Assembly: GCA_000091205.1 (NCBI GenBank)
Contig: AP006491.2
DNA length: 64,000 bases
Reading direction: 5' to 3' (one strand)
From: Cyanidioschyzon merolae
Lineage: Eukaryota
The position numbers were made by a program, and so were the translations under genes. Below the pieces are notes generated by a model that made no database searches, was not told the origin of the DNA, and saw only the letters and a list, made by a program, of their open reading frames with translations. The first letter of the stretch is position 1, and each line of letters opens with the position of its first letter. Positions 1 to 61,020 of the stretch are shown here, piece after piece.

Positions 1-109
1 TATTTCTTCAAATGGACGCACTGCGGAAGCGTCTGATATAAATCGCGAAAAACCAGTAGACGACATGTAGTAGGGGTGGAACCCAAACGAGGTAAGAGAC
101 TATAAAATG

Positions 110-1400
110 CGACACTGAACTGCTCGCTCTTTGGCTGCCTTGCGATTTTTCCGAGCTTTTCTTGAGATGCGGATCCAAAATTCCAATTGTAGCAATTAGG
201 ACCGAGGATATCGTGGGTATAATGGGCTTCTTTGTCGTCTTTTCAAAGTGACACCTTCGACTCTTTGCTTCTAAAATCCGTTATGCCACCGTCAGCAAGA
301 TGATTTACGATGCCTTCGAAAGCGAGTTCTTAAAATAACCGCGATCATTGTCCAATTCACACATACAAGCCTCCATTCTCTTCTCCTTTCTTTACGTCTA
401 GTATGCGCACATCGCGCATTCTGCAAGGTTAAAATCTTTCCGTTTCGAGACTGCTCGTAGGATTTGCAATTTGCGCTGCTGGGTGGACGAGAAGAAAACT
501 CGACGCAGTACCCTGAAGACTTTTTTGCAAGCTCCTGCCGTAAGTTCAAGGAACTGTTCACTTCAAACAATAGGTTCCGTTCGAATCGCCAATTTTCTTC
601 TGTTTGCGGCCACCGACCATACGATTCTCGACAACAGCATGATGGCTTAAACGAGATAAGCTCCCAGAGGCCCCGTCGATTTTGCTTGCATGGAAAAGGG
701 TCTTTGACACGAATTCCAGCCTTCGCAGCGATCGCTTTCGGTAGAAATTGCATCCGTGCTTTGCATGGAGTGTAAATGGATCGAGATTCCTCGAGTCGTT
801 CTCCAATCTACATCCCCCTCCGATGTGTGATTCAAGGCGAACAACATTGCGTTCAACAAATCTATCATCGGATAGAGAGGCATGTCCATGCGCGAGCAGC
901 AGGCCAAGAACTCGCCGGCTGTATAATCCCGAAGCAGCCCATGAGCGCAGAGTACGCCACGGGGCGCGCAAACGGAGGAAAGCATTGGTAAGATCCTTCT
1001 ATATCCGTCAAGGGCATTTCCTGACCGATAATGCAAATGCTCCCGCGCCGCAGGGCAGCCCGTGGTGCAGATGTGATGGGAAAATGGAAAAACCTGGTTA
1101 CAGCCGAGTGTCACCTCTGCGAAAGGCACACCGGAGCTGTACAAAAAGCAAATGAAAAAGGCGAACGAAGCGTGGATCGCAAATTGGAACTGTGAAAGGA
1201 TTGCGTTGATAGCAGCGGGAAGAGGCGAAATTGGGTCTATAACGCTGGTATGATCCCCTTTAGCTTACGGCCATGGAGCTGGTAGGACGTGAATGATCAG
1301 CGTAACTGAGGCCGGAGATTAGACAGATGAGAAGAAATCAGCTGTAGAAAACGCACTCTAAGGCTGGTGTTGGTGAACGTGGGAAGAAATCCAAAATTTG
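110..1400 (+). pseudogene. Y-family TnpB/Fanzor-like relic, most diverged copy (approximate bounds)
   Basis: It is collinear with the 17.4-18.5 kb copy. The 5' block ttccgagctttt (149-160) is shared. The translated stretch GAVQKANEKGERSVDRKLEL*KDCVDSSGKRRNWVYNAGMIPF (1133-1261) matches EAVQKEDANGKRSSDRDSRQCIKRVYNSEKPRNRDFNATISIL. Stops and frameshifts are present, and the RNRD position reads RRNW. The overlapping 60-165 aa ORFs in all frames are not convincing genes. Confidence 0.35.
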
Positions 1401-1544
1401 AGAGTAAACGTCCGTGTTATTTGAGTGGACCTGTTCAATTTTACTCTATGCTGGGTGTGTCTCTGATCTAAACAAGGGAGTGGCGCTTCCCCTGTTCCAA
1501 AGTCGAATAGTTGAACAATTGCTAACGGCTCGCTTGCTCTCACT

Positions 1545-9479: not shown

Positions 9480-9780
9480 GATTAAGAAAGGTTGCCGCTG
9501 CAGGGCGTTCAACTCGCTAACAAATTGAGAGAAGACAATATTGTACGCCACGGGAATACAAAGAGAAGTGCGCCAGTGTCCGCCCTAAACTAATAGCGCC
9601 TCAGCGGTACTTCCCCGTGCTGAAAAGAACTCAAAGAATTCAACAGTCGGACCTATAGCTAAGATTCAGCGGCGCGCACACGCCATCAGAGCCACCGTAC
9701 GCCGCGTGCACCCATGTTGCCATAACACGGGCTATGTTCCCGAACTCACGACTATACTCGAAAGTTCGTGCCACTCACCG

Positions 9781-10640
9781 TTACCGCAAACGACGGCCTT
9801 GGCGGGCTTTTACCGCTATCGCTTCCATTTCCCCTCTCGCCTCTGGCTTTGAATACGCCGGTTGCTCATGTCTCTCCAGCCCCATGGTCACCAGCCGAAG
9901 GATACTGATCGTAGCGTTGAAGTCTCTGTTTCGCGGCTTCTCGCTGTTGTAGACCCGTTTTATGCACTGGCGCGAGTCACGATCTGAGCTTCGTTTACCA
10001 TTTGCATCCTCTTTCTGCACGGCCTCGGGGTGCACTCCCCAGCCGTTACACTTGGACCTGGTCAGGTGTTCCCATGTGCATCCACCAGTCCTCCACCGCC
10101 TCTGAGCGCCACTGTGTGGCGCGTAAACGCTTGACCCATCCCTCGGTACATGCGCTTTACCGTTCCGGAAGGCTCCGCCCGATGCCGTCCTCCGTTTCCG
10201 CGCGCTGCGCCATGCCCAATGATCACAGGCCTCTCCCGGGTGATTTCCTCAGCGAGTACTCTGTTCGCTGCACATTTGTGTGCGCGCTGTCGGATTCGAG
10301 TACTCGGACCCCGCCTCCTTGCCCGCTCTTCGTTTTTCTGCCAATTCTTCGCACAAAAAGTGCCGATGAGCTTGACGCGAATCGAGACACCTTGCCAACT
10401 CGTGGGTGTCGAGCCCGCATGTACTGTTTATTAGCGACGATGCGGCCAAGACGTCTGAGACTCACGCCGGGCTCGCTCGCAGGCGGCAGGCCTATCTTCG
10501 CCTCGGCGCCCTCGTATTTGAGGAATATTCGACCAAGGTTTAGAAACTGGCTGCTGATACCGGTTGCTCCCAGAAGCAGCGTCCGGGGTCGTCGTCGACG
10601 TCTCGCTGACCGTGATGTCCACGACATTCAGCACCAAAGA
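9781..10640 (-). pseudogene. Y-family TnpB/Fanzor-like RuvC nuclease relic (arm A copy)
   Basis: The minus-strand translation, spread across frames, reads VVDITVSET, then LGRIVANKQYMRARHPRVGKVSRF, then PVIIGHGAARGNGG, then EHLTRSKCNGWG (10036-10071), then RQCIKRVYNSEKPRNRDFNATISILRL (motif at 9892-9933). This follows the TnpB order: RuvC-I, helical RxxNxRxDxxHK, RuvC-II region, TSKxCxxCG, CxxC and DRDxNAAxNI. Frameshifts are present and Zn-ribbon cysteines are lost. Confidence 0.55.
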
Positions 10641-11139
10641 GTCGAAGGAGTGCTCAGAAACGAGGACCCGGAATCTCCAACATACCTATGAGTTCGTAGA
10701 ACATTACTGATGCGCTTCGAATGCCGAAGCTGTACGTCTGAACAAAAGTTCAGAAGCAAATCGAACGACGGCCACAGAGAAAGCAGTTTAGTGTTCTCTT
10801 TATAAATCTGACATGGACTAATGGTCTATAAACTCAACTGTATTCCTGCCGCACTGTGTATGATCGAATGCTGTTTGCGGTCTAGGGCGGGGGCCAGAAA
10901 TCACGATGCCATGTACCCGATAGATCGTAGGCGAATCGCCTGTGCGATACATATTCTTTCCTGAACAGTGCATGGAGGACTGCGTTCCTCCTCCAGGTCG
11001 GTCGTACAACAGTACTCAGATGGTTGACGAACACTGACCGAAAGAAGTAGATGCACTCTGCGTCAAACATCGATATTCTCAGAGAATGCGCGCGATCAAC
11101 GGTAGAAAACGGCCCGCTGACCACCTTTTACGAAAGACA

Positions 11140-15927: not shown

Positions 15928-18489
15928 CCTTTTTTGACCCGCCGCCTGCAATCGGTTCCAGTTGATTCACGCACACTTCGAGCCTCAGCAGTTGCCACAT
16001 AGCGTTGGATCGTGTCAGCTGCTCGGGTCTCGTCTTCAGCACAACGCATCGTCTGATATTGGTAGCAGCGTTCAAGTCTCGGCTTACGAGCTCCATGCGT
16101 TTACTGCCGATCCCTGATCTCATCACACCGAGGGTTCTTAGTACTCGTGCCCTCTGTTCCGCTACAGTCTCGTCATCGTTCCACTCGACAAACACCGTCC
16201 CTCGCCTATCTCCTTCTTCTCCTTCTTCGCCACTTGCTCTTCTTCGCTCGATGGTCGGCGAGAGGAGGCATTTCTCGTTCTGGCTGCGTCGAATCCAGCA
16301 ATGACGGAACTCAGGATCCCCGACTTCCACATCCATACCATTCCCTTGGATTCTCTGTTTCTTCAAAATCATAGCGATTGTTCATTCGTTTAGGTGAGGA
16401 CCTTCCCGCAAAAGCTAGGACTCGCGAAAGTAAGACACCATGCGCCCGTGTGTCAACGTGTGCCGGAAGCTTCAGCGATGACCCCACTGGAGCGACATCA
16501 TACGTTTCACAATGGAAAACATTCTTTTGATGAGGTTGAATCAAGTAGAGCACAGAGGAATGAAAAGCAGCACTATACCTCGACAGGATCGGCAAAAGCC
16601 CGAACGCAAGGGGAATGGTGAAATGCCACGGTGTCCAGCAGAAGGACGTCGCCCGACGTCGGGGCGAAATCTTCCATGATTCGATCAAGTGGCTGCTGTT
16701 GGTCGATGAGCCTTCTCCACTAGTGAATCTGAGGCCGCAAATAAAGTCCACTCCGTCTGGAGCAGATGATGACATCCTCGCTCTCTTCGAGCTCGATCGT
16801 ACATCCAGCGGGTGCACTGTCCGCGAATACCCATTTACGCTCCGGCCGCCTCGTCCGAAGCAAGTTTCATCGACTGAACAAGCAAACCGACGTCCGTGTC
16901 CCGGTCCCTGTGCTCCATACGGATAGTGGCGTTCCACGAACGCTGAAGTAGCTGTGACCTCGGTGGGAAATGGCCGTGCACGAACTGAGACTTTCTTTTT
17001 GCGACTGTACCCCGTGTATTCAGGACCACTCGAACACGCTTTTAAGGAACAGGGACGCGCGTAGCGACTACTATTTTCGCATTTGTCTTTCGTAAAAGGT
17101 GTCAACGGGCCGTTTTCTACCGTTGATCGCGCGCATTCTCTGAGAATATCGATGTTTGACGCAGAGTGCATCTACTTCTTTCGGCCAGTGTTCGTCAACC
17201 ATCTGAGTACTGTTGTACGACCGACCTGGAGGAGGAACGCAGTCCTCCATGCACTGTTCAGGAAAGAATATGTATCGCACAGGCGATTCGCCTACGATCT
17301 ATCGGGTACATGGCATCGTGATTTCTGGCCCCCGCCCTAGACCGCAAACAGCATTCGATCATACACAGTGCGGCAGGAATACAGTTGAGTTTATAGACCA
17401 TTAGTCCATGTCAGATTTATAAAGAGAACACTAAACTGCTTTCTCTGTGGCCGTCGTTCGATTTGCTTCTGAACTTTTGTTCAGACGTACAGCTTCGGCA
17501 TTCGAAGCGCATCAGTAATGTTCTACGAACTCATAGGTATGTTGGAGATTCCGGGTCCTCGTTTCTGAGCACTCCTTCGACTCTTTGGTGCTGAATGTCG
17601 TGGACATCACGGTCAGCGAGACGTCGACGACGACCCCGGACGCTGCTTCTGGGAGCAACCGGTATCAGCAGCCAGTTTCTAAACCTTGGTCGAATATTCC
17701 TCAAATACGAGGGCGCCGAGGCGAAGATAGGCCTGCCGCCTGCGAGCGAGCCCGGCGTGAGTCTCAGACGTCTTGGCCGCATCGTCGCTAATAAACAGTA
17801 CATGCGGGCTCGACACCCACGAGTTGGCAAGGTGTCTCGATTCGCGTCAAGCTCATCGGCACTTTTTGTGCGAAGAATTGGCAGAAAAACGAAGAGCGGG
17901 CAAGGAGGCGGGGTCCGAGTACTCGAATCCGACAGCGCGCACACAAATGTGCAGCGAACAGAGTACTCGCTGAGGAAATCACCCGGGAGAGGCCTGTGAT
18001 CATTGGGCATGGCGCAGCGCGCGGAAACGGAGGACGGCATCGGGCGGAGCCTTCCGGAACGGTAAAGCGCATGTACCGAGGGATGGGTCAAGCGTTTACG
18101 CGCCACACAGTGGCGCTCAGAGGCGGTGGAGGACTGGTGGATGCACATGGGAACACCTGACCAGGTCCAAGTGTAACGGCTGGGGAGTGCACCCCGAGGC
18201 CGTGCAGAAAGAGGATGCAAATGGTAAACGAAGCTCAGATCGTGACTCGCGCCAGTGCATAAAACGGGTCTACAACAGCGAGAAGCCGCGAAACAGAGAC
18301 TTCAACGCTACGATCAGTATCCTTCGGCTGGTGACCATGGGGCTGGAGAGACATGAGCAACCGGCGTATTCAAAGCCAGAGGCGAGAGGGGAAATGGAAG
18401 CGATAGCGGTAAAAGCCCGCCAAGGCCGTCGTTTGCGGTAACGGTGAGTGGCACGAACTTTCGAGTATAGTCGTGAGTTCGGGAACATA
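15928..18489. mobile_element. Composite repeat, arm B (inverted copy of arm A): X2 (15928-~16380, minus), X1 (~16440-17390, plus), Y (17391-18489, plus)
   Basis: ORF-track translations are identical to arm A for the 229-, 134-, 94-, 84- and 72-aa ORFs of the Y part. The X part differs at a few residues. The X2 motif lies at ~16046-16084(-) and the Y motif RNRDFNATISILRL at 18289-18330(+). The X2 3' terminus is replaced: similarity to copies A and C ends at 15928, so about 70 bp of tail is missing. Confidence 0.9.
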
Positions 18490-19816
18490 ATCCTTTTTGT
18501 AGTTACCTGGGTCTAAAATCGAAGGCTTGAACGAGATGCCCTATGGATGCGCGGTAGCTGCTATCATCTTTGGAGGAGACGGCTTCCCTTTTCTAATCAT
18601 CACGACGTTACACAAGCTTGGGCCCATTTCTTTCGTCGAAAATGGGGCCTGGATCGTTCCAGCGATGGATCCGCGCAACGCGAAGGCACCAAAGACAGAA
18701 ATTAATGGTAAACTGCGAACGGGTATACTGGATTAATCTGCTGCCCGGGGGGTTCCGTGTAAATTACATAGCACGTACGCGTGGTGGGCCTCATGCTCAG
18801 TAACTTTCGCGAAACTTCTCTCGGGCGCGATGCGGTTTCCAATCAATACCCTCGAATCAGTATTGTTTCGAGTCGTGACGGATTGAAGCATCCCCTGCGC
18901 TTTTCCCCCGAGCGATCGCAAGCAATGATTCACGGAATTCCCTGGCAAGAGCTCCACGAGATGCTTTTTTGCTCTAGGAGCACATGGTGCCGGATTGAAT
19001 TACCTGAGACTTATCTTGGCATGGTAGCCCTACCCTCCAAGGTAGCTACTGTCAGCCAACTCAGATACTAAAAAGCGAGGCATCTCGTTCAGATATCTGC
19101 TCACGCGCGTCGAACCGGACTGTGGGGATTTCGTGAGCTTTCCTGGCGCGTTTACCTCAGCCATAGGCATTTGCTGTAGTCACTGGAACCGAGGGCACAC
19201 TCGAGGTCTCATGCAGAATATCGCTTGGCGCTGGTATATTACCAAATCATATGCAGAGAATTAATGATTTGAGCGTATTGCACAAAACCGCTGTTCAACG
19301 AAAGAGAGGAGATTCATTTCGTGTAAAGCGGGCGAACGGAGACTCTTAAAGCCGGAACGGGATCGACGACATCAGATTTGCACGCGCGCTTCGGGTCCGA
19401 AGCTGAACGTGCGCGACTCCCGACAAGAGGCCCCGTCCATTTTTTTACCTCTGGAAGATTTACACTGACTATGGATCTCCCGTGGCGCGATTTGTGTTTG
19501 CATCCGGAAAAACGATCATTTTTCCACACTATATCATCACGTCCTGTCGCCCGCCACCCACATTTTCCAGACAGAGACACCGTTCATATTGCTTCCTCAG
19601 TAGAGCACCAAACTGTTGTGAGTACCGAAATTAGCGCCTAAAATGCCAGGGTAGACGCCCCAACGAGACGGAACGGCTTTGCCTTACCCTCATGGGCATC
19701 GGCCTCAGAGGCCACGTCCATGAGCGGTCGCAATCGCCACTTATGTGGAGCGTAGCGCACGCTTGCTGCACGAATCCCGGACTTCTTACAAGTGTGGCGC
19801 ATGGAAAAGTTGGCAG

Positions 19817-32041: not shown

Positions 32042-34432
32042 ATCGTTCACCAATTGCCCAGGAGAAGGTTCCCATTACATACATCTTTGTAGTGCTCCAG
32101 CCTTTCCGGTTCGCTGACCCGTGCTACACCAGCGACTCGCCCAGGGCGGATATCCAATGCCCGCCCACCTGACCACCGATTCGTATTCATCGCAACGCAT
32201 CAGCTTCCCAGCACAATACCTCCACTGAGCACTAGAGGATTCCCTCAAGAGTTCGCTCGACACAATGCCGCGGGACGCTCCGAACGCTCCCGGCATTTCC
32301 GTAAGTTGATCGAGGCGCTCAGGTCTGGGTGCAGCAAGTGCATGCGCACTTGTTGCGGATCGAGCCGCGGCATAGCAAGTCTCCTATCTTCGATGGCCTC
32401 GTCAACTGACGCCCGGTCAGTTTGCCGTTGACCAGCCCGTGCATCCGACACGCTTCTACGCTGTTCCTCTCTACCAGCTCCAGCGTGCACCCCTGCCTGT
32501 GATGCGCGTACATCGCCCTGTTCGCATTGACAGCAATAGTGCAGAATCGACTCGTGCACTCGTTGCACGCCGCCGTCGAAGGCACGGGAGTACAGCCTGT
32601 GCGCAGCACTGCGCGTCGAGCGCCACAGGCTACCGCCAAACGACGCGAATTGTCGATCATCTCCCTCTGCTCTCCATTGAAGAAGTGAGCTGGTGCGCGC
32701 TCGTGGTTTCATCGCACCGAGCTGGTTGGCGATCTCAATGCGGTCTCATGAAAACCTGCCAGGGATAGCCCACGTGAGCCAGATACACGCTCTTGTACGC
32801 TCTGTGAGTGGCGCGCACAACGCATCCCGCTCAACTCGTTCAGGTGCTCAGAGCGCCATCATCGGGTCTGACGCCGCTATTCCACCCGCTGGCATGCCGC
32901 CTGGCGTCCATCACGCCCGACTCCAGATAATACAGAGCCATGGAAAAACTTGAGCAGCCTCATGTGCTTTCCATTCACTTCGTAGCGTCTGAGCGCTTCA
33001 CCCAGAGGTACGGCGATGTCCTTGAGGTTGATAGACCGGAGATTCACACCCGCCACGACGCTTGTCTCCTTCTCTCGGTTGAACTGTCGCAAAGCACCCT
33101 CTTTGCTCGATTCAAGCCTCCGTTTCACAAAGTGTGGGCAAATGGATATTCAGTGTGATCTTGACCCTCGGATAATTTCCCCCGGGTGCCCTCCCGGGTC
33201 CTCTTGTCATACGGATTCTGCTGTTCTGTAACCAACGGAATTTTCTCCATCTCCTAATGTTGGCGCGGTGCTATAGACGTGGACCCTATATCGCATGCCC
33301 GCTTTTCTTCCTCGGGGTTCAGAGGCACTGGATGGCCGCCGGCACTGAGACTTGCGTTTTCTGTGTATGTATCTCCAAGTCTTCGAGCGCTCTTCCTCAC
33401 CTGCTCTGTCGCGGGCACGCTCACGCACCGTAGTGCACCTGTCCGCCCCCTTGGTTTCACACGCGATCGGAGAAGCGGGAGTGCGGTTCAGGCCTGGTGA
33501 AGCAAGAGAACGAGTCGTCGTAGGACGGTGCTGCGGATGCAAACGAAGCGTCTATGGATCCGTGAAAGTAGAGACGGCGTTTGACGAAACAGAAGTCGCC
33601 TTCGGCTGGGTGCAACCAAAGAGCCTAGGTTGGAACGAGGGACAGCTCAACGCCAATCTCAATTGCAGACGCCCTGACCGCGTTTGACCGATGGAAAAGC
33701 GGCACTGCCGAAGAGCAGTGCAGAAGAATTCGGTACTGGGAGCTCACGAACCGCTTCGATGAGGAAATGGACCATTGAACGATCCTGTCTGTTTGGTGAT
33801 TTGAGGGCGATCCCAACTGAATCCGGGGGCGAGGCGCATGTCGTCACCGTACGCGCCTGTGCCATATTTACGACCAGCGGTGATCCGCTGTTTGAGCACC
33901 CATATCGAGGTCGACCATTTCGCTCGGATGATACCTCATCGAGTGAAACGGAGACCGGCCCGTTCTGTACTAACCGTGCGCGTTACAGCATGAGATCGGT
34001 AGCGCGTTATTCAACGCACGACGGTCTCCCGAAGAAGAGCGCTTTTTGCTCTGTCCATCCGTGTCTCTTGGTGGCCATTGTATCGAGGGCACGGAAGCTA
34101 CACATCCTGTTGGTTCGTTAGGAACGTTTCCGAGAGCACGTATGGAGTGGATTGGATTGACTGGGAGACAATTTTGTGTACCGAGTTTGATCGTTTCCGT
34201 CGTGATGCCCAGAACGCAGAATAAGTAGTATGAGGAGTGCGGCTCATGTACCAGCTCACCGTAGAACAACTGACTTGAGCAAGTAAGGCCGTGTGTCGGA
34301 AGCTGGCAGTCACAGCATAAAGCATTTCCGCGATCTTTCTCCGATCCACGAGATACGTTCCTCTTGGTGAATACCTGCGCGAAGAGAACAAAAGAGGGTG
34401 TGCTTGTAAAGATATCCTAGAACGTACTGCTC
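32042..34432 (-). repeat. IR2 left arm (2.39 kb), degenerate RT-like (non-LTR retroelement?) sequence
   Basis: It is the reverse complement of 38153-40542. Boundaries were read directly: atcgttcaccaattgccc at 32042 corresponds to gggcaattggtgaacgat ending at 40542, and gaacgtactgct ending at ~34432 corresponds to agcagtacgttc at ~38153. The ORF translations of the two arms differ at only a few residues. Confidence 0.9.
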
Positions 34433-38152: not shown

Positions 38153-40542
38153 GCAGTACGTTCTAGGATATCTTTACAAGCACACCCTCTTTTATTCTCT
38201 TCGCGCAGGTATTCACCAAGAGGAACGTATCTCGTGGATCGGAGAAAGATCGCGGAAATGCTTTATGCTGTGACTGCCAGCTTCCGACACACGGCCTTAC
38301 TTGCTCAAGTCAGTTGTTCTACGGTGAGCTGGTACATGGGCCGCACTCCTCATACTACTTATTCTGCGTTCTGGACATCACGACGGAAACGACCAAACTC
38401 GGTACACAAAATTGTCTCCCAGTCAATCCAATCCACTCCATACGTGCTCTCGGAAACGTTCCTAACGAACCAACAGGATGTGTAGCTTCCGTGCCCTCGA
38501 TACCAATGGCCACCAAGAGACACGGATGGACAGAGCAAAAAGCGCTCTTCTTCGGGAGACCGTCGTGCGTTGAATAACGTGCTACCGATCTCATGCTGTA
38601 ACGCGCACGGTTAGTACAGAACGGGCCGGTCTCCGTTTCACTCGATGAGGTATCATCCGAGCGAAATGGTCGACCTCGATATGGGTGCTCAAACAGCGGA
38701 TCACCGCTGGTCGTAAATATGGCACAGGCGCGTACGGTGACAACATGCGCCTCGCCCCCGGATTCAGTTGGGATCGCCCTCAAATCACCAAACAGACAGG
38801 ATCGTTCAATGGTCCATTTCCTCATCGAAGCGGTTCGTGAGCTCCCAGTACCGAATTCTTCTGCACTGCTCTTCGGCAGTGCCGCTTTTCCATCGGTCAA
38901 ACGCGGTCAGAGCGTATGCAATTGAGATTGGCGTTGAGCTGTCCCTCGTTCCAACTTAGGCTCTTTGGTTGCACCCAGCCGAAGGCGACTTCTGTTTCGT
39001 CAAACGCCGTCTCTACTTTCACGGATCCATAGACGCTTCGTTTGCATCCGCAACACCGTCCTACGACGACTCGTTCTCTTGCTTCACCAGGCCTGAACCG
39101 CACTCCCGCTTCTCCGATCGCGTGTGAAACCAAGGGGGCGGACAGGTGCACTACGGTGCGTGAGCGTGCCCGCGACAGAGCAGGTGAGGAAGAGCGCTCG
39201 AAGACTTGGAGATACATACACAGAAAACGCAAGTCTCAGTGCCGGCGGCCATCCAGTGCCTCTGAACCCCGAGGAAGAAAAGCGGGCATGCGATATAGGG
39301 TCCACGTCTATAGCACCGCGCCAACATTAGGAGATGGAGAAAATTCCGTTGGTTACAGAACAGCAGAATCCGTATGACAAGAGGACCCGGGAGGGCACCA
39401 GGGGGGAATTATCCGAGGGTCAAGATCACACTGAATATCCATTTGCCCACACTTTGTGAAACGGAGGCTTGAATCGAGCAAAGAGGGTGCTTTGCGACAG
39501 TTCAACCGAGAGAAGGAGACAAGCGTCGTGGCGGGTGTGAATCTCCGGTCTATCAACCTCAAGGACATCGCCGTACCTCTGGGTGAAGCGCTCAGACGCT
39601 ACGAAGTGAATGGAAAGCACATGAGGCTGCTCAAGTTTTTCCATGGCTCTGTGTTATCTGGAGTCGGGCGTGATGGACGCCAGGCGGCATGCCAGCGGGT
39701 GGAATAGCGGCGTCAGACCCGATGATGGCGCTCTGAGCACCTGAACGAGTTGAGCGGGATGCGTTGTGCGCGCCACTCACAGAGCGTACAAGAGCGTGTA
39801 TCTGGCTCATGTGGGCTATCCCTGGCAGGTTTCCATGAGACCGCATTGAGATCGCCAACCAGCGCGGTGCGATGAAACCACGAGCGCGCACCAGCTCACT
39901 TCTTCAATGGAGAGCAGAGGGAGATGATCGACAATTCGCGTCGTTTGGCGGTAGCCTGTGGCGCTCGACGCGCAGTGCTGCGCACAGGCTGTACTCCCGT
40001 GCCTTCGACGGCGGCGTGCAACGAGTGCACGAGTCGATTCTGCACTATTGCTGTCAATGCGAACAGGGCGATGTACGCGCATCACAGGCAGGGGTGCACG
40101 CTGGAGCTGGTAGAGAGGAACAGCGTAGAAGCGTGTCGGATGCACGGGCTGGTCAACGGCAAACTGACCGGGCGTCAGTTGACGAGGCCATCGAAGATAG
40201 GAGACTTGCTATGCCGCGGCTCGATCCGCAACAAGTGCACATGCACTTGCTGCACCCAGACCTGAGCGCCTCGATCAACTTACGGAAATGCCGGGAGCGT
40301 TCGGAGCGTCCCGCGGCATTGTGTCGAGCGAACTCTTGAGGGAATCCTTTAGTGCTCAGTGGAGGTATTGTGCTGGGAAGCTGATGCGTTGCAATGAATA
40401 TGAATCGGTGGTCAGGTGGGCGGGCATTGGATATCTGCCCTGGGCGAGTCGCTGGTGTAGCACGGGTCAGCGAACCGGAAAGGCTGGAGCACTACAAAGA
40501 TGTATGTAATGGGAACCTTCTCCTGGGCAATTGGTGAACGAT
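38153..40542 (+). repeat. IR2 right arm (2.39 kb), degenerate RT-like sequence
   Basis: The plus-strand frames give, in order, EQQNPYDKRTREGTRG (~39360; QxGFxxGR-like), VVAGVNLRSINLKDIAVP (~39520; xxDxxKAFDxV-like) and GWNSGVRPDDGALS (~39690; GVRQGDPLSP-like). There are many stops. The assignment is weak. Confidence 0.4.
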
Positions 40543-40749
40543 AGAGGTGTTATATCATTGGATACTAGTAAGAATACTCGGGATATAACGAGAGCGTTTG
40601 GTAGCATTGCTACAACGCAGGATCGGAGTCCTGGTTATGCATTGAAATATTAAATAACTCTCAGCGGAAACCTCCGAGGGCGTTTTCAAATCAAGAGGGA
40701 AAACGGTTCGCTCGGAGTCTACACCTGTGTGACACTAATACAGAAAACT

Positions 40750-41958
40750 GAAGAGCTCGCTCTCTTCATGCCTCGAGATTTTCCCGACCTTATTCAGCTG
40801 ACGTCCAATTACAAGGGTTCGTAAAGTAACCGATATCATCATCCTGTTCATACGGCCAGGCCAAGCGTCCACTCGCCTCGTTTTTTTTTCTGTTTAGCAT
40901 GCTCGAATCAAGCAGACTACAAGCTTTCGCTCTTTCTTTTTCAGAGGTAACTCGTGAGCGTAGTGATCTGTGCAACGGGATTGATGAGTAAAAATACTTG
41001 ACGTCGCCCATGCGCGACCTCTTCACAAGCTCATGCCGAAACTTCACTGAATTTCTCCCGTTAAATGATAAATTACGTTCGGATTACAAATTCAGCTCTT
41101 TTTGTGGCCATTTACGAAGCGGTATTCAATTGCTGTTGGATAGCTCTCACGGGATATGCTGCCAGAGGCTCCCGTCTCGTTGGTTTGCAGGGAAAAGAGT
41201 TTCGGACTGGGACTAGAGACATCGCTGCGGTCGCTCCCAGTGTAGGGAGTGTAACGATTTTGTACGACGCGAGCGTAGAACGGATCGAAATCCATCGATT
41301 TCTTCACCACCCTGGATTTTCGTTCCGGAACTTGTTTCAGTACGCAGAAAGTAGCGTTCCACAAATCCTCTATCCAATGGAGCAGCATGCGCTTACGTGT
41401 GCTGCGGACGGAGCATTCGCAATGGGAATCGCCCAGAAGAAGCCTTTGATCATGTGATAGGGCAGCAGGCGTCGAAAACAAAGACCGCATCAGGCGGAGC
41501 CTTCTAGACCGGTAAAGGGCGTGTACCGAGCGTTGAAGGAAGCGTTCACGCTTCACAAGGCAACCATCGGAGGAGCAGTAACGGCCGACACGTGGGATCA
41601 CTTCAACTCTGTTAAATGTTACCGCTACGAGGGGCGACTTGGGGCTGCGTTCGAATGTGATGAAAATAGCAAACAGACTGTAGATCGCTTCTTCCGCCTG
41701 TGTATGAAATGCATCACCAGCAGCAGCAAGCAGCAGAGTCGGGACTTGAGTAGCGCCATCCACATCCTTCCCCTGGTGACATCGAAGCTGATGGGAACGG
41801 AGAGACCACCATAGAAATCCGCATATTACAGTGGAAAAGTAAGTAGTGGCAGAACGAGCCTACAAGACTAATGTTGATGATAGCGCGAAGAGACCCAAAC
41901 GTCTGCTCGTACGTTCCTGTTAGCTAGACGGGACTCGTTCCGTTTTAGTGTGACATGG
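40750..41958 (+). pseudogene. Y-family TnpB/Fanzor-like relic (diverged solo copy)
   Basis: The plus-strand translation reads ERIEIHRFLHHPGFSFRNL, then KKPLIM*, then TWDHFNSVKC (41593-41619), then FFRLCMKCITSSSKQQSRDLSSAIHILPLV (motif at 41737-41778, with one CxxC retained). The antisense ORF 41092..41763 shares SVHALYRSRRLR with the 229-aa antisense ORF of arms A and B. Confidence 0.5.
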
Positions 41959-42281
41959 AGCCCATACTTTGCGTGGAGCTCTTGGAGGGATTGGACGTCT
42001 GGCATCCGGCAGGCCGCCGTTTAAGCTACGTGTATGGTTTTGTGCTGAAGTAGACGTGCGACGAGCTGCCTTCGTGTCCACTTGTACACATGCCTTCACT
42101 TGTTGGCGTCTAAGGAGCAAGCGGACGCGCACGGGTCGCGGACGCGAGTTGGCGCCAAACAACTTGAAAGTGTGCTCCTCCTCGTCGAGGTCGACGTTTT
42201 CGCAGCTCACAGAGAAGCGAAAAGTCTTTCCTGCAGAGTTCTCGCCGCTCCCTGATTCGATCTTTTGGGTGGAGCTTCGAC

Positions 42282-46719: not shown

Positions 46720-47205
46720 TTAAGAATAGAAAATCCTAGGCTAAGTTATGGACTTGCAAGTCGCGAATCGAGGAAGGCCATCACCGCCGGCTGCCGACAG
46801 AAGAAAAAGCAAAAATCCTCTTCTCGCCGAACATCAAACGAAGAAAAGCAAGTGACGAAGAAGAAGAGCGGAGATATGCGAGAAAAGGCGTTCGTACGAC
46901 GGGGCGATGACGAGGCTGTAGTGGCATAGAGGTCGCGAACTCTAGGAATCTTTGCAATGGTACGTTCCACCAGCGGCAGCAAACGCATGCAGTTCGTGGA
47001 CCGAGACTTCAGCACCGCCATGAATATCAGACGATGTATGATGCTGAAGAAGAGAACTGAGGAGCTGACGCGATCCAACGTCGTGGTGCAGCCTCTCAGG
47101 CTCGAAGTGTGCCTGCGTAAACTGAAACCGATAGCAGTGGTCCGGTCACAAAAGTCTGGGAGACGTCTGCGCGTGGGTGTATCTGTATACACTCTATGGT
47201 CGTTG
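46720..47205 (+). pseudogene. X2-family TnpB/Fanzor-like relic (diverged solo copy)
   Basis: EKAFVRRGDDEAVVA*...MVRSTSGSKRMQFVDRDFSTAMNIRRCMML (motif at 46999-47037) is collinear with GTVFVEWNDDETVAEQ...GIGSKRMELVSRDLNAATNIRRCVVL. The 3' tail is also alignable at DNA level to 12179-12350. Confidence 0.55.
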
Positions 47206-48346: not shown

Positions 48347-50332
48347 TCAACAGGGAGCCCTTTTTCTCGTCAAGTCGGGGTCACTGCTATCTGCAGCATC
48401 CTGTGGAGTATATCGCCTGCGGAAAAATATCTCGAGTTCCCTTGTCGTGAGCTGGCGAAACGTTGGACGCCCATGCGGACACGTGCGAGGTGCTTTCGTT
48501 CGGAGCCATTGGTCCACCAATGACTGCATCCTCTCTCGATCCAATTGCGTTCCGTTCTTCACCGCTGCCCTGCAGGCGAGAAGCGCTAAGCGATCCTCCA
48601 GACTGGATGCAGAACCGAGTGCTTGTAGCAGGAATTGCATCTTTCGCTCAGACTGCGACCTGGGGCAATCATTCTCAGGGTCTAGGAGTCCCGCTTCGAT
48701 GAACATTTGCGGGGCGCGTTCCACTTTCCATTCCAATGGACCGATCATGGTCATGTGGATGCCCAGGGATTCTCGCAGCTCCTCGACCTGAGCTTGAGCG
48801 AACAGACCTCGCATAATAATTGGTTCGCGGAGCTCGACAATATTACGCGCCAGAGACGTATACTGGTCCCTGTACTTTTCGTAGAGCACGCGTTCGTGTG
48901 CGGTATGCTGTTCAATAATCCAAATATCACCGCTCTCCATATTGGTGGCGATGATGTAGGTCTTACCAATCTGGGTCATGGCTTCGAGTCTGAGCAGCTG
49001 GTTACTTTGGGGTTCATCAGCGGCACCGTTTAAGGCGCCTTCTTCCATATCGATAAGTTTCCGAAGATAGGTCGATGCAAATAAGTCTGCGGCGGATACC
49101 TCTGATAGCGGCATCGAGAAGCAACGATCGATGCCCTCTCGAAGTTTCTGAAACCAGTACTCGGGGTCACGTAAACGCATCATAGTTTTCATCGGGTGAA
49201 TATTCCAATCGACATCTCTTCCAGGGCATCTTATGTGAATGAAGATTATCGGGAAGCGACCGGAAGGTAACGTGTGCTGCACATGGCTCAGCGCCGCGTT
49301 CACGAGGTCCGCGTTCTGTACAGCTCTACCGTTCACAGCCACAATGACCGCATCCGCCCGTGAGCGATGGTGCCCCCGGTCCGGATACCCGAGCACACAG
49401 AGGACTTGATCGCTAGCGAAAGCACCACACTCCTCAGGCGCAATTTCCATGATCTGACTAAACATGCGGATAAGGGCGTGCTTAGCTCGCTCTGTCTCCG
49501 ATTCCTCGTCAGAGAATTCAAGTTTGCCGTATAGGGTAAGAAGATTGCGTCCGCTATCTCGAACTCTCCAAGAAACGTTCGGATGGCATAAAGCCGTTGC
49601 GCGGACGAAGGATAGGAGCTGTTGCCGCAGCTGCCTCTTGTGCGGCATGGCGGAACGCCGCGGGGCAAACTGTTCGTCGCAAAAGAGACCAGTGACCTGG
49701 ACAATGGTTCCCTGGGGAAGGCCGACAGGCTCAACCGGTTTCGTTTCAACTTGTTGTGGGCTGTATTGAATCATGTAACCACAGGGGCTGGTCTCCCCTT
49801 TCGAGCGAACCTCAATACACGCACAGAGCTGGGATATTGCCCAGAGACCCTGACCTCGAAAGCCGAGTGTGTGCACCCGTCCAGCAACGAGCTGCTCCAG
49901 TGAGGCGAGCTTACTCGTCGCGTTCTGCTGAAGACAACGTTCAAGGTCATTTGGCCTCATCCCTCGTCCATTATCTCGTACGACGATATTGCCAGCATCA
50001 AAGTCGATGTCGATCTCCACCGCGGTGGCCTCCGCGTCCAGCGCGTTCTCGACGAGCTCTCGCACAGCAGCGACGGGGCTATCAATGACTTCGCCACTCG
50101 CTATTCGCTGAATGACCTCTGTAGGCAAGACGGAGATCCGCAAGGTCAACGGTACTGACCTCCTTGGGGATGTTCGTCGATAAACGGATCTCGGACAGAG
50201 CTTCAACGGCGTTGACGACCAAGGCTGCGCTGGGCTCAGAACAACCCGTCGTGATGATGCGTCGCTTTGCTGCAGCTTGCCCACGTTGCTCGAGATATGC
50301 TTTCTTCTGATGAAACAATATGATATGAACAT
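48347..50332 (-). CDS. MUTL: DNA mismatch repair protein MutL, bacterial-size, with N-terminal extension
   Basis: The GHKL ATPase region reads IASGEVIDSPVAAVRELVENALDAEAT and VRDNGRGM. The C-terminal endonuclease-type motif is EQHTAHERVLYE, and CPHGRPT is present. The ~590-aa core sits behind a ~70-aa S/R-rich leader. Confidence 0.9.
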   Translation of the reverse strand: MFISYCFIRRKHISSNVGKLQQSDASSRRVVLSPAQPWSSTPLKLCPRSVYRRTSPRRSVPLTLRISVLPTEVIQRIASGEVIDSPVAAVRELVENALDAEATAVEIDIDFDAGNIVVRDNGRGMRPNDLERCLQQNATSKLASLEQLVAGRVHTLGFRGQGLWAISQLCACIEVRSKGETSPCGYMIQYSPQQVETKPVEPVGLPQGTIVQVTGLFCDEQFAPRRSAMPHKRQLRQQLLSFVRATALCHPNVSWRVRDSGRNLLTLYGKLEFSDEESETERAKHALIRMFSQIMEIAPEECGAFASDQVLCVLGYPDRGHHRSRADAVIVAVNGRAVQNADLVNAALSHVQHTLPSGRFPIIFIHIRCPGRDVDWNIHPMKTMMRLRDPEYWFQKLREGIDRCFSMPLSEVSAADLFASTYLRKLIDMEEGALNGAADEPQSNQLLRLEAMTQIGKTYIIATNMESGDIWIIEQHTAHERVLYEKYRDQYTSLARNIVELREPIIMRGLFAQAQVEELRESLGIHMTMIGPLEWKVERAPQMFIEAGLLDPENDCPRSQSERKMQFLLQALGSASSLEDRLALLACRAAVKNGTQLDRERMQSLVDQWLRTKAPRTCPHGRPTFRQLTTRELEIFFRRRYTPQDAADSSDPDLTRKRAPC

Positions 50333-50519
50333 ACTTGACTACCCTGGTGGTCACTAAAACCGCACGACGACTCTCCACATCAGCGCAGCGGATTATCGGT
50401 GATGTGATATGGATATTCGTGTCTGAGAAGCCACGCCAACGCGTTCCCGCTGATCGCAGTCCGGTGCTTTTGTGGCGAAACCTGCACCAGATTCAAAGGG
50501 AACAAAAAGCCACTCATTC

Positions 50520-51860
50520 TAAGACTGAATTTCGTTCTTTCCGAGCTTTTTGTCAGATGAGCAGCCTCGACATCCGAAGTGCATCAGTAAGGGCACTGCG
50601 GATTCATGCAAAGCTTGAGGAGTTTCGGGGGTGTTTTCGGAGTGACCCCTTCGACGCTCTGCAGCCAGAATTCGTCCGTCATCGGTACCAGGACGATTCG
50701 CGACGGCCTCGAAGAAGGACCCCTAAACTAAGCGACGGCACCATTGAATTCACATGTACGAGACTCCAGGCCGCTCGTTTCCATGCGTTCAGGGTGTCCT
50801 ACTCACGCATGCCTCGCACGCTCGACCTTTCTGTTCCAGGGCAACTCGTAGGCACAACAACTCGCGCTCCTTCGTTGACGGGTAAGTAAATCGACTTTAT
50901 GCGTTGGCGGCATGCTCACAATATCATGCGCAAACTTCACCGAAATTCTCGCTTCGAAAAAATAGACTCCGTTCAAACGACACATCCGGCTCTCTTTGGA
51001 GCCAACTAGGCATCGGCTTTGCACAGAAGCAGTTTCCCGTCGACGGGGCATGCTCCCAGAGGCTCCCGGCTCTTGTCATCGGAAACCGGACTCGGGCTCG
51101 GGCTCGGACTTTAGTCATCGCGGAGGTCGCTTCTGGTACGGTCTGCATCACTGCCTTGGACGAGCGCAGCGGACATAGATCGAATTCTCTGGGCTTGTTC
51201 ACCAACCGGGATTTCCCTTCCTGGGCTTGTTCACCATCGACATCATCGCATGGCACAAGTCCACTGTCGACTGGGACAGCGTGCGTCTGCGTGTCCAGCG
51301 CGCAGGGCACTTGCCCAGCGCATGACCCCGAAGAAGCCCGTGATCGTCGAGTGCAGCACCGGTCGCGCAAAAGCATGAGGGCATCGAGGCGAGCGTTCTG
51401 TGCACGCTCACGGCATGTATCTGGCGCAGGAACAAGTGCTCAAGCAACACAGGGCCTCTTGTCTGAAGAGACTGCGTTGTAGTCACATGGGATCACCTGA
51501 TGACGCAGACAGGTCACCGCTGCAACAAGGCGCACAGCGTCTGTATACAACGAGGATGGAAATGGCAAACGCAGCGTAGATCGCAACCTTTGCGTGTGCT
51601 CGAAAGACGTCAACAACGAGCCGGAAGCGGCGAAATCGGGACTTGAGCGCTGCTATCAACATGGTTCGTCTGTCGGCACCTGAGCTGGTGGGAAAAAGAT
51701 AGACCAGCGCGTTTGAAGCTGGATAGCAGAGTTAGGAACAGTAAACACGTGCAGAGACATCCCGTAGCGGCTTGTGTTGATGATAGCGAGAAGGGACCCA
51801 AACCTGAGCGTGTACTTCCGTGTTAGATAAGTTGGCCCGTTCCGTTCTATTCTGACATAG
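50520..51860 (+). pseudogene. Y-family TnpB/Fanzor-like relic (diverged solo copy)
   Basis: The 5' block ttccgagcttttt (~50540) is present. The translation reads KKPVIVECSTGRAKA (~51331-51375), then VVTWDHLMTQTGHRCNKAH (~51476-51535), then FACARKTSTTSRKRRNRDLSAAINMVRL (motif at 51631-51672). Frameshifts and stops are present. Confidence 0.5.
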
Positions 51861-52878
51861 TTGTAGAGGCTGCCCCTGCCATTGATGCTTTCCTTTGAAA
51901 ACTTGAAACCCCGCTGACGCGGCCCATTCCCCAAGTTGCATGCAGCGTGATCTCCGATGGCTGCGAACGCAGTAGCTTGCGAACGGTACAGGAGCGATCT
52001 CTCTAAACGCCATTTTCCGCTGAATCGTTCCATAACCGCTCGCCTTCGAGACGGACGTGCGCCCCACAGCCATGATATCCAATCTTTCGCATTCTGGAGG
52101 CGGTGGGGGCGGGAGGCGGCTATACGCATCCAGAGGCGATAGTCTCCATGATACCTAGAAAAGCAAGGGTATTCGGGATGCCCTTCCAGGCGATGTCGTG
52201 ACGTATGCTAGTTGCGCTGAAAACAAGATGGTATGTACCACAAAGCAGATACATTACAGGTGGAAACGGACAATGCAGTGAATTCTACGTGAATTGCCAA
52301 CCAAACTAGCGGGGTTTTCACTGATCCATGTAAACTCAGAGGCATGCGAGCGCGCTTGTAGGCAGCGAAACACCCCAGAGCACCCCAAATGCATAATGTA
52401 TGGCGCTGTGCAACTCAAAAGGCCGCCCACTCTACTTTGCATCGCCACTTGGCCGGATGGTAAACGGAAGCTGTCTTCTTTTGCGCTCATGGTGCAAGTC
52501 AACTGGAGAATGAGGTTCATGTGCTAACTAAGGGCACCAGTAACCTATGCAGAGTGAAAGGATGCAAATGAGACAGTACTCATATGACACGTGTTGCGCG
52601 CAAAAACCGTTTTCCATGAGTAACGCATGTGGCTGAGCATCACAATCGAGACGAGCGCGATCATCTGGGAAGATCCTGCAGCGAAATCTGGCGCATGAAA
52701 ATGAACGCGATGATCAGTCGGCGGTAGCGCAGTTCCCGGCAAGCACAGCGCCACGATGCGTAGCGATCGCGTTGCCCCACCAGGAACGGAACCCTGAGAC
52801 CTGCCAGGAGGCGCGAGGAGAACACCTTTCGTTTAGACCTAAGACTGCCTGGCGCAGCGTTCACAACCGAACGCGCTT

Positions 52879-60500: not shown

Positions 60501-61020
60501 GAAACAGCTTTGCGAAGAGCGTCGGCCGATGTTGTCCAAAGCTTGTGGTTTGCAGGCAGGGCACGGGAAGCAGTTTACGGGGATGATGAAGTCCGACGGA
60601 ACATCAATCTGGGTGCGCTTTGTGAAACCTATAAAACTCTTGAAATTGTTGAAACCCGCGAAACCTAGATCTGTGCCGAGCAGCGATAATAATTCCGAGC
60701 CGTTCGAGGCGGATGAAGAGGACGACTCTGTAGCGGGCTTCGATTCTAGGTCGAGGTCGCTCGTAGTCGTTGCGGTATCTCCGAAAAGGAAGCAGACAGC
60801 GCCCAGATTCTGAACGGAAAACGAGTGACGCCGCTTAGTTTTTCCAGAGCTCATAATTCACGGGAGTCAGGTTCCATGGACAAGAGGAGTCATCCCCACA
60901 AATTGAATGACGGCATCAGGACCCGTTTTTGCGTGCCGAGCACCGTGCCGTGCAGAGGCGAATGCTCCGCACGCGGTTTTCAGAGCGTCCATGTGCGTGC
61001 GGACGACACTCAGCAAGCGA

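What the first reader, a model, noticed from the sequence alone, without database searches (positions are those of the whole stretch)
40750..41958. Y family: ~1.2-1.35-kb TnpB/Fanzor-like elements with conserved 5' and 3' blocks, five copies in 64 kb
The copies lie at ~110-1400(+), 9733-10830(-), 17391-18489(+), 40750-41958(+) and 50520-51860(+). All share a 5' block (ttccgagctttt / cttcggcattcgaagcgcatcagtaa). All share the same ordered motifs, ending in TW[ED]H[LF]xxxxC and a RuvC-III-like string: RNRDFNATISILRL, SRDLSSAIHILPLV, RNRDLSAAINMVRL or RRNWVYNAGMI. The solo copies are strongly diverged from one another. The family is therefore old and was repeatedly inserted, unlike the recent segmental copies. 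The shared 5' end argues for a defined short element of about 300 codons rather than random truncation.
Basis: partly seen in the sequence, partly recalled or inferred. Interest (0 to 1): 0.7.

Follow-up and report, generated by a model that had tools for sequence, protein, structure and literature searches.

The report
Decayed mariner transposon with Fanzor fragment
The five repeats are real, but they are dead copies of a shortened 'cut-and-paste' transposon in a hot-spring red alga: the front 60% of each comes from a mariner-type transposase gene, only the last 40% comes from a Fanzor (eukaryotic TnpB) gene, and this is an ordinary, already known kind of element.

Summary
Five copies lie at about 85-1457(+), 9709-10818(-), 17404-18513(+), 40722-41964(+) and 50484-51863(+). 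Four are distinct and old, 67-75% identical to the family consensus. B and C are a 99% identical recent duplicate. Seven more distinct copies of the same genome were found in metagenome contigs.

An 11-copy consensus has two open frames joined at one junction shared by all copies.
- Nt ~69-855 encode the first ~255 aa of an IS630/Tc1-mariner transposase. Pfam DDE_3 scores 34-38 bits (cut-off 28.6). The consensus is 39% identical over 235 aa to an intact 322-aa transposase (E 3e-54). It breaks off at '..YSP', before the third catalytic residue.
- Nt ~840-1315, in the -1 frame, encode only the last ~160 aa of a Fanzor1. Pfam Cas12f1-like_TNB scores 29 bits (cut-off 26.3). hhalign against Fanzor1 C-termini gives 98.6% probability, E 1e-15.
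- RuvC-I, WED and REC are absent.

The ends are ~26-bp terminal inverted repeats, enriched for TA flanks. Every copy carries stops and frameshifts.

It is most likely an internally deleted, non-autonomous derivative of a mariner-type element that carried a Fanzor1 gene. Bao & Jurka (2013) described that architecture, and also a Fanzor1 family in the related alga Cyanidioschyzon merolae. It is a new member of a known kind, of low interest.

The parts
40722..41964 (+). Copy D (the finding): whole decayed element, 1243 bp, flanked by TA at 40720-40721 and 41965-41966
   Evidence: Terminal-repeat matches and flanks. Collinear with the other copies. Frame-aware alignment needs 6 stops and 6 frameshifts.
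40722..40748 (+). Copy D 5' terminal inverted repeat (CACCTGTGTGACACTAATACAGAAAAC), degenerate
   Evidence: Match to the TIR consensus CACCCATGTCAGAATAAAATGGAACAC. The consensus 5' end versus the reverse complement of the 3' end is 20/21 identical, score 41 against a shuffle maximum of 30.
40802..41443 (+). Copy D remnant of IS630/Tc1-mariner (DDE_3) transposase, consensus residues ~50-253. The first ~50 codons are lost in a ~190-bp deletion. Both catalytic Asp are mutated (AIYEA; STQKVAFHKS).
   Evidence: tblastn of the family transposase consensus. The frame-corrected translation versus intact transposase P0227 gives 28% identity over 185 aa, E 3e-16. The consensus hits Pfam DDE_3 above cut-off.
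41419..41899 (+). Copy D remnant of the C-terminal ~160 aa of a Fanzor1. It contains KKPLIM**G (RuvC-II region), TWDHFNSVKC..LCMKC (zinc finger) and SRDLSSAIHIL (RuvC-III). In this copy there is a stop at 41812-41814; the family consensus ORF would run to ~41899.
   Evidence: tblastn. The plain window translation 41461-41802 versus the Fanzor1 profile A6 gives hhalign E 1.8e-4, collinear. The family profile versus A6 gives 98.6%, E 1e-15. Pfam PF07282 scores 29 bits on the consensus.
41937..41964 (-). Copy D 3' terminal inverted repeat
   Evidence: the DNA search with 3 mismatches, 0 matches expected by chance.
85..1457 (+). Copy A: transposase part ~168-941, Fanzor part ~923-1398; 12 stops and 8 frameshifts
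9709..10818 (-). Copy B: 99% identical inverted duplicate of C from 9733 onward. Its last 24 nt (9709-9732) are a different, diverged Y 3' end.
17404..18513 (+). Copy C: ~270-bp internal deletion, with TA flanks on both sides (17402-17403 and 18514-18515)
50484..51863 (+). Copy E: transposase part 50557-51310, Fanzor part 51313-51802; 2 stops and 11 frameshifts; TA after the 3' end

Best explanation
The 'Y family' is an old, non-autonomous, internally deleted derivative of a Tc1/mariner-IS630-type cut-and-paste DNA transposon that carried a Fanzor1 passenger gene.

Inferred history:
- The parent had the layout TIR - transposase gene - Fanzor1 gene - TIR.
- One internal deletion of roughly 2 kb (inferred) joined transposase codon ~255 to about the last 160 codons of the Fanzor1 gene. 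The break falls just after '..PPYSP', before the NPIE motif that holds the third catalytic residue. The Fanzor1 part sits in the -1 frame.
- The resulting ~1.37-kb element kept both ~26-bp terminal inverted repeats. A full-length relative's transposase could therefore move it in trans, inserting at TA dinucleotides (inferred from the TIRs and TA flanks).
- It amplified, then all copies decayed neutrally.

Neither half can work. The transposase lacks its third catalytic residue and C-terminus. The Fanzor piece lacks WED, REC and RuvC-I. No copy has an open frame. Today the copies are inert DNA, although they may act as substrates for ectopic recombination.
For: Shown:
1. The copies are homologous over their whole length.
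2. The 11-copy consensus has frame 1 open over nt ~22-855. That frame hits Pfam DDE_3 at E 2.5e-8 to 2.4e-9, 34-38 bits against a 28.6 cut-off, with weak HTH_33, HTH_Tnp_Tc3_2 and HTH_32 hits.
3. That frame is 39% identical over 235 aa (E 3e-54) to an intact 322-aa DDE_3 transposase, P0227, starting at both proteins' Met. P0227 continues with 'PPYSPWFNPIE..' where Y breaks off.
4. Frame 3, nt ~840-1315, hits Pfam Cas12f1-like_TNB at E 1e-6, 29 bits against a 26.3 cut-off.
5. The profile of that frame matches a Fanzor1 C-terminal profile at 98.6% probability, E 1.1e-15, over 115 collinear columns. It also matches C. merolae Fanzor1 CMe-1 residues 558-685.
6. Every copy has the same junction, and 7 of 8 have the same -1 frame offset. 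Independent ORF fragments from metagenomes end at the same '..YSPRESSRRSP*'.
7. The terminal inverted repeats are 20/21 identical in consensus, score 41 against a shuffle maximum of 30.
8. Seven of 18 flanks are TA, against a 3.4% background, P 1e-6.
9. All 11 distinct copies carry 1-12 stops and 2-11 frameshifts.
10. Of 356 representative hits among 1.84 billion proteins, almost all are short fragments.

From the literature: Fanzor1 genes ride in TA-flanked mariner elements together with a mariner transposase, and C. merolae has an old Fanzor1 family (PMC3627910).
Against: - No full-length parent (same TIRs, intact transposase plus complete Fanzor1) was found in the window, in 27 metagenome loci or in the protein searches. 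The deletion is therefore inferred, not observed.
- The exact breakpoint cannot be fixed to the nucleotide. For ~150 nt upstream of the junction both frames are open in the consensus, and the Fanzor frame there weakly resembles Fanzor1 ('EQRALACAADRVLAEG').
- TA flanks are seen at only 7 of 18 ends; four more are TG.
- No empty site was available to prove the duplication.
- Single decayed copies mostly do not reach Pfam thresholds on their own. The domain calls rest on consensus sequences and profiles.
Confidence: 0.85

Rival explanations
1. One reading: each copy descends from a compact, self-contained TnpB/Fanzor-like element of ~300-380 codons with RuvC-I/II/III and its own ends.
For: The C-terminal motifs are real. 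My first 4-copy consensus could be stitched into a 380-aa 'TnpB-sized' frame.
Against: - That stitched N-terminal frame was wrong. With 11 copies the long open frame is a different one, and it is a DDE_3 transposase.
- Re-alignment to the corrected guide raised scores for most copies, for example L022 from 501 to 888 and L027 from 509 to 915.
- No RuvC-I Asp motif exists upstream of the RuvC-II region.
- hhalign and BLASTP homology to Fanzor1 begins only at 'KKPVIV'.
Confidence: 0.03
2. The chimera arose by juxtaposition rather than deletion. For example, a truncated Fanzor1 fragment was captured by, or inserted into, a mariner element that never carried a complete Fanzor1 gene, and the composite then amplified.
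For: - No complete parent was found.
- The genome is littered with other Fanzor1 fragments that could have served as donors.
- Bao & Jurka note that Fanzor1 is often found in chimeric elements.
Against: - The Fanzor part ends ~35 nt before the 3' TIR, in the same orientation as the transposase. That is what a Tpase-Fanzor1 mariner minus its middle would give.
- The Y Fanzor part is not close to the other Fanzor1 remnants in the window. tblastn finds only Y copies, and CMe-1 matches it at only 28%.
Confidence: 0.08
3. The master copy was a functional fusion. A programmed -1 frameshift at the junction produced a protein joining the HTH and partial RNase-H-like core of the transposase to the RuvC-II/zinc-finger/RuvC-III part of Fanzor.
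For: - The -1 offset is shared by 7 of 8 copies, and the frames overlap at the junction.
- Both halves derive from RNase-H-fold nucleases (established knowledge).
Against: - No intact copy exists among 11 loci or 356 representative fragments.
- No slippery-site or structure analysis supports frameshifting.
- A simple out-of-frame deletion explains the same data.
- Both halves lack catalytic residues.
Confidence: 0.02

Closest known systems
Mariner/Tc1-type Fanzor1 elements (e.g. PUl-1 and PUl-4 of Pythium ultimum, PGv-1 of Phaeocystis globosa virus; Bao & Jurka 2013, PMC3627910)
   Same: TIR-bounded, TA-flanked elements that combine a mariner-like transposase gene with a Fanzor1 gene. Some members have lost one of the two genes.
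   Different: Y keeps only the first ~255 aa of the transposase and the last ~160 aa of Fanzor1, joined out of frame. It is ~1.37 kb instead of ~3.4-3.8 kb, all copies are dead, and the host is a cyanidiophycean red alga.
CMe-1A / CMe-1 Fanzor1 family of Cyanidioschyzon merolae (Bao & Jurka 2013)
   Same: An old Fanzor1-bearing repeat family (copies ~80% identical to consensus) in a closely related alga. The Y C-terminal part aligns with CMe-1 residues 558-685. CMe-1-like remnants also lie in this window and in locus L029.
   Different: CMe-1A is ~3.2 kb, encodes a 734-aa Fanzor1, and has no TIRs and no assigned superfamily. Y is only ~28-35% identical to it in the shared region, has TIRs and carries a transposase remnant.
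Internally deleted non-autonomous DNA transposons (MITE-like derivatives of Tc1/mariner elements)
   Same: One shared internal deletion, retained TIRs, TA flanks, mobilisation in trans (inferred), and amplification followed by decay.
   Different: At ~1.37 kb it is larger than typical MITEs, and it still carries recognisable pieces of two genes.
Prokaryotic TnpB-only IS200/IS605 elements and Fanzor2
   Same: The zinc-finger/TNB and RuvC-III motifs are homologous (Pfam PF07282; weak NCBIfam guided_TnpB and Cas12f2 hits).
   Different: There are no RuvC-I, WED or REC regions and no IS200/IS605-type ends. The best profile match is to Fanzor1, with its 'GRPKE-VVV-G', 'DEFRTS' and terminal 'RPxxL' pattern.

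Membership tests
Fanzor1 / TnpB superfamily | RuvC-I aspartate preceded by WED/REC domains (the first D of the D-X(125,275)-[TS][TS]-X-X-C4-X(5,50)-RD motif) | tested here: not met
   The region upstream of the RuvC-II segment encodes a DDE_3 transposase in another frame. Fanzor1 homology starts at 'KKPVIV'.
Fanzor1 / TnpB superfamily | [TS][TS]-X-X-C4 zinc finger (TNB / OrfB_Zn_ribbon) | tested here: met
   The consensus reads 'HLTTAKCHRC...LCMKC'. Pfam PF07282 gives E 1.1e-6, 29.1 bits against a 26.3 cut-off. The feature is eroded in individual copies: copy D has NSVKCYRY..CMKC.
Fanzor1 / TnpB superfamily | RuvC-III 'RD' motif (RDxNAAxNI) | tested here: met
   The consensus reads 'RNRDFNAAINILRL'. 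The motif is recognisable in most copies and aligns with the Fanzor1 'nRDxnaAxnm' column block.
Fanzor1 / TnpB superfamily | Profile similarity specifically to Fanzor1 C-terminal halves | tested here: met
   hhalign of A5 against A6 gives probability 98.6%, E 1.1e-15, over 115 columns.
Fanzor1 / TnpB superfamily | Intact ORF and an associated omega-RNA/guide at the 3' end | tested here: not met
   No intact ORF exists in any of the 11 copies. Rfam gives no hit. An omega-RNA fold was not tested, because neutral decay leaves little power.
IS630 / Tc1 / mariner superfamily | DDE_3-type catalytic domain with the first two catalytic Asp | tested here: met
   Pfam PF13358 gives 34-38 bits against a 28.6 cut-off on the consensus. 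The motifs are 'VAIDET' and 'FIMDNIAFHKS'. The consensus is 39% identical to the intact transposase P0227, E 3e-54.
IS630 / Tc1 / mariner superfamily | Third catalytic D/E (NPIE motif) and the C-terminal part of the transposase | tested here: not met
   The match stops at profile position 117/146, after 'YSP'. The frame ends 'YSPRGSPRRSP*'.
IS630 / Tc1 / mariner superfamily | N-terminal helix-turn-helix DNA-binding domains | tested here: inconclusive
   HTH_33 (20 bits), HTH_Tnp_Tc3_2 (19 bits) and HTH_32 are all below cut-off. The N-terminus is nevertheless collinear with P0227, which has the same weak HTH hits.
IS630 / Tc1 / mariner superfamily | Terminal inverted repeats | tested here: met
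   The repeats are ~26 bp. In consensus they are 20/21 identical, score 41 against a shuffle mean of 16.7 and maximum of 30.
IS630 / Tc1 / mariner superfamily | TA target-site duplication | tested here: inconclusive
   TA is found at 7 of 18 ends against a 3.4% background, binomial P 1.3e-6, and TG at 4 more. No empty site was available to prove duplication.
Non-autonomous deletion derivative | A single internal junction shared by all copies, and an autonomous partner elsewhere | tested here: inconclusive
   The shared junction is met. An autonomous partner was not found in the data reachable here.

The most novel reading that the evidence does not exclude
The ancestral Y element was not junk but encoded, through a -1 frameshift at the shared junction, a natural hybrid nuclease. 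Its N-terminal part would be the HTH and DD part of a mariner transposase, and its C-terminal part the RuvC-II/zinc-finger/RuvC-III part of Fanzor1, two RNase-H-fold halves. Such a hybrid could itself have driven the family's spread.
Probability: 0.02. Interest if true: 0.7.

Novelty: new member of a known kind. Interest (0 to 1): 0.2.

Why it matters
The practical value is for annotation. These loci should be masked as a decayed Tc1/mariner-Fanzor1 deletion derivative. They should not be mined as a miniature RNA-guided nuclease.

The finding adds a TIR-bounded, TA-flanked, mariner-type Fanzor1 lineage to the Cyanidiophyceae. The only Fanzor1 family described there so far (CMe-1A) has no TIRs and no assigned superfamily.

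This alga's gene-poor region is a graveyard of several Fanzor1 families. One recent 99% identical inverted duplication ends inside Y copies, which hints that these dead elements still shape genome structure through recombination.

Tried and rejected
- Pfam on single ORFs of the copies found nothing; the copies are too eroded.
- A word-indexed homologue search with the 4-copy C-terminal consensus gave no hit at E<=0.01.
- PDB sequence searches with the consensus and with both profiles gave no relevant hit.
- My first reconstruction (4-copy consensus) put the N-terminal two thirds in a wrong frame. It contained tempting 'TnpB-like' strings (NRFRSNxKF, QDGL, VIAAVASG). The 11-copy consensus, DDE_3 and P0227 showed the true frame, so I rejected it.
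- I looked for a RuvC-I Asp at 'AAVASG' and 'VSDSD'. Both belong to the transposase frame or to an out-of-frame reading.
- An exact-protein contig look-up of the MutL ORF was not on record. The organism was instead identified by a homologue search.
- Alignment of window-only fragments for the big HMM search failed. I used proteins returned instead.
- Rfam and tRNA scans of the window found nothing.
- Locus L032 (a transposase fragment also ending at 'PPYSP' in a GC-rich, probably viral contig) has no Fanzor part and is an unrelated truncation.
- A search for extra Y-type TIRs in the window found only copies D and E. An exact TIR pattern in the loci found none.

Full report
**Observation.** blastn of the finding's region against the window recovers the other claimed copies at 64-73% identity, E 1e-10 to 1e-20. 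A four-way MAFFT alignment is collinear over ~1.3 kb. Copies B (9.7-10.8 kb, minus strand) and C (17.4-18.5 kb) are one 99% identical inverted segmental duplicate (pair I2). The window therefore holds four independent, old copies. All six frames of every copy are broken. tblastn between copies shows no frame preference, which is the signature of neutral decay.

**Host.** The window has low coding density and intron-less genes.
- A cyanobacterial-type MutL with an N-terminal extension lies at 48347-50332(-). Its best named relatives are Cyanidiococcus yangmingshanensis (62%) and Cyanidium caldarium (39%).
- The window therefore comes from a cyanidiophycean red alga.
- The same genome is present at ~99% identity in several JGI metagenomes and one Logan run.

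**First pass, which turned out to be wrong.**
- A 4-copy consensus gave an open C-terminal frame with 'KKPVIVEYGTG...TWEHLITAKCHRC...LCMKC...RNRDLNAAINILRL'.
- It gave a sub-threshold Pfam Cas12f1-like_TNB hit, 22.6 bits.
- I stitched an apparent 380-aa 'TnpB-sized' protein from it.
- It had no database or PDB homologues.

**More copies.**
- A back-translated motif scan of JGI metagenome contigs returned 27 loci.
- After removing loci that are this window itself, seven further distinct copies of the family remain from the same genome. All are broken.
- Bao & Jurka (2013) had already described a Fanzor1 family (CMe-1A, 734-aa protein) in Cyanidioschyzon merolae.
- tblastn with CMe-1 showed that the window and loci contain several other Fanzor1 remnants, and one nearly full-length CMe-1 homologue in L029. 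The Y family matches CMe-1 only weakly (pairwise BLASTP 34.7 bits; hhalign E 6e-4 over Y 255-374 against CMe-1 558-685).

**Turning point.**
- In most copies a frameshift was needed at the same place in my stitched protein.
- An 11-copy consensus resolved this. It has two long open frames.
- Frame 1 (nt ~22-855, ATG at ~69) contains 'LFVAIDETVFDSS..TGYAPRGSR..GKGSWTRTRVIAAIASSGE..EGS..CFIMDNIAFHKS..EYSP'.
  - It hits Pfam DDE_3 above the gathering score: 34.3 bits, and 37.6 bits with the Xs filled in, against a cut-off of 28.6.
  - It also has weak HTH_33, HTH_Tnp_Tc3_2 and HTH_32 hits.
- Frame 3 (nt ~840-1315) is the Fanzor-like part. It now passes the Pfam TNB cut-off, 29.1 bits against 26.3.
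- Re-aligning all copies to the corrected guide raised scores for most of them and reduced the number of frameshifts needed.

**The transposase half.**
- A profile search of 5.8 billion proteins found only short ORF fragments of further decayed family members. Several end at the same '..YSPRESSRRSP*'.
- A full HMMER scan of 1.84 billion representatives found 356 hits, again nearly all fragments, plus a few distant intact DDE_3 transposases.
- The Y consensus is 39% identical over 235 aa (E 3e-54) to one of these, P0227 (322 aa), from Met to the second catalytic Asp. P0227 continues 'PPYSPWFNPIE...' where Y breaks off.
- Copy D itself gives E 3e-16 against P0227.

**The Fanzor half.**
- I compared a profile of the 11 frame-corrected C-terminal parts (A5) with a profile of seven Fanzor1 C-terminal regions taken from Bao & Jurka's supplement (A6).
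- hhalign gives probability 98.6%, E 1.1e-15, over 115 collinear columns.
- The aligned features are 'PVIVEYG' with 'VVVGWG', 'P.PVKGMYRAMKQ' with 'P...FR.LL.RF', 'TWEHLTTAKC' with 'DEFRTS..C', the second CxxC pair, 'NRDFNAAINI', and the terminal 'RPA.L'.
- The untouched window translation 41461-41802 alone gives E 1.8e-4.
- Homology begins at the RuvC-II segment. There is no RuvC-I, WED or REC.

**Junction and ends.**
- In every copy the transposase part (to residue ~255) abuts the Fanzor part. In 7 of 8 scorable copies the Fanzor frame is the -1 frame. One chimeric master therefore preceded amplification.
- The consensus 5' end and the reverse complement of the 3' end share CATGTCAGA[A/T]TAAAATGGAAC, 20/21 identical. 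The score is 41 against a shuffle mean of 16.7 and maximum of 30. In several copies the repeat is preceded by CACC.
- TA abuts 7 of 18 ends against a 3.4% dinucleotide background (P 1.3e-6), and TG abuts 4 more.
- For copy D the element is 40722-41964, with TA at 40720-21 and at 41965-66.
- Only Y copies carry this TIR in the window.

**Interpretation.**
- TIRs, TA flanks, a 5' transposase remnant and a 3' Fanzor1 remnant in the same orientation, ending ~35 nt before the 3' TIR, are what is left if the middle is removed from a mariner-type Fanzor1 element. PMC3627910 describes such elements, for example PUl-1 and PGv-1.
- The deletion itself is inferred. No full-length parent was found.
- Copies are 67-76% identical to the consensus, apart from one truncated, partly misaligned copy. 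Conservation along the element is flat. The family is therefore ancient and decaying neutrally.

**Verdict.**
- The repeat family is real and the Fanzor resemblance of its 3' part is real.
- The proposed compact TnpB/Fanzor-like nuclease does not exist here.
- The element is a dead chimeric deletion derivative of a known kind of transposon, in a lineage where Fanzor1 repeats were already known.
- Interest is low, about 0.2. Novelty: a new member of a known kind.

Noticed in passing
window 6318-7038(+), 32233-32947(-), 39637-40351(+): There are three copies of a different Fanzor1 remnant, matching CMe-1 residues ~462-702 at ~40% identity. All three lie inside the 99% identical segmental repeats (D1, I1, I5). 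One ends ~370 bp upstream of Y copy D.
   Followed up: partly
window 12053-12319(+), 15908-16300(-), 23323-23718(-), 46930-47175(+); also 60202-60995(+): These are C-terminal fragments (CMe-1 residues ~615-729, 40-53% identity) of a CMe-1-like Fanzor1. A weaker match to residues 240-517 lies at 60.2-61.0 kb. The region is a graveyard of several Fanzor1 families.
   Followed up: no
L029 913-3185 (metagenome contig Ga0209012_1014570; same place as L027): A nearly full-length homologue of the C. merolae Fanzor1 CMe-1 (71% identity over residues 138-734, 65% over 1-136) sits directly downstream of a Y copy's 3' end. It may be an intact or recently active Fanzor1 of this alga.
   Followed up: no
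window 9709-9733 and 18489-18513: The 99% identical inverted duplication B/C stops 24 nt before the Y 3' terminus. The last 24 nt of B and C are two different, diverged Y ends (14/24 identical), followed by unrelated flanks. The recent duplication or conversion apparently ended inside pre-existing Y copies, suggesting repeat-mediated rearrangement.
   Followed up: partly
window ~6.3-47 kb: A dense web of 95-100% identical direct and inverted segmental repeats, up to 2057 nt with a 4.4-kb spacer (32024-34080 / 38504-40560), lies in a gene-poor stretch.
   Followed up: no
window 48347-50332(-): An intron-less MutL has a ~70-aa N-terminal extension. Beyond other Cyanidiophyceae, its closest relatives are cyanobacterial MutL proteins (35-38% identity). 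It is probably an organelle-targeted gene of endosymbiotic origin.
   Followed up: no
window 41092-41763(-): A 223-aa antisense ORF runs across Y copy D. Metagenome annotations call it a gene. It overlaps decayed transposon sequence and has no Pfam hit on record, so it is very likely spurious.
   Followed up: partly
L032 4001-4930 (JGI Ga0104935_100011, 61% GC): In an unrelated GC-rich contig a ResIII-helicase ORF runs into a related DDE_3 transposase fragment that also stops right after 'PPYSP'. No Fanzor part follows. The shared truncation point is probably a coincidence.
   Followed up: partly
P0161 (342 aa, protein library): One called ORF reads from the C-terminal end of a CMe-1-like Fanzor1 straight into a Y-type transposase remnant. 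This is the same neighbour order as upstream of copy D, so Y copies and CMe-1-like elements may tend to lie next to each other.
   Followed up: no
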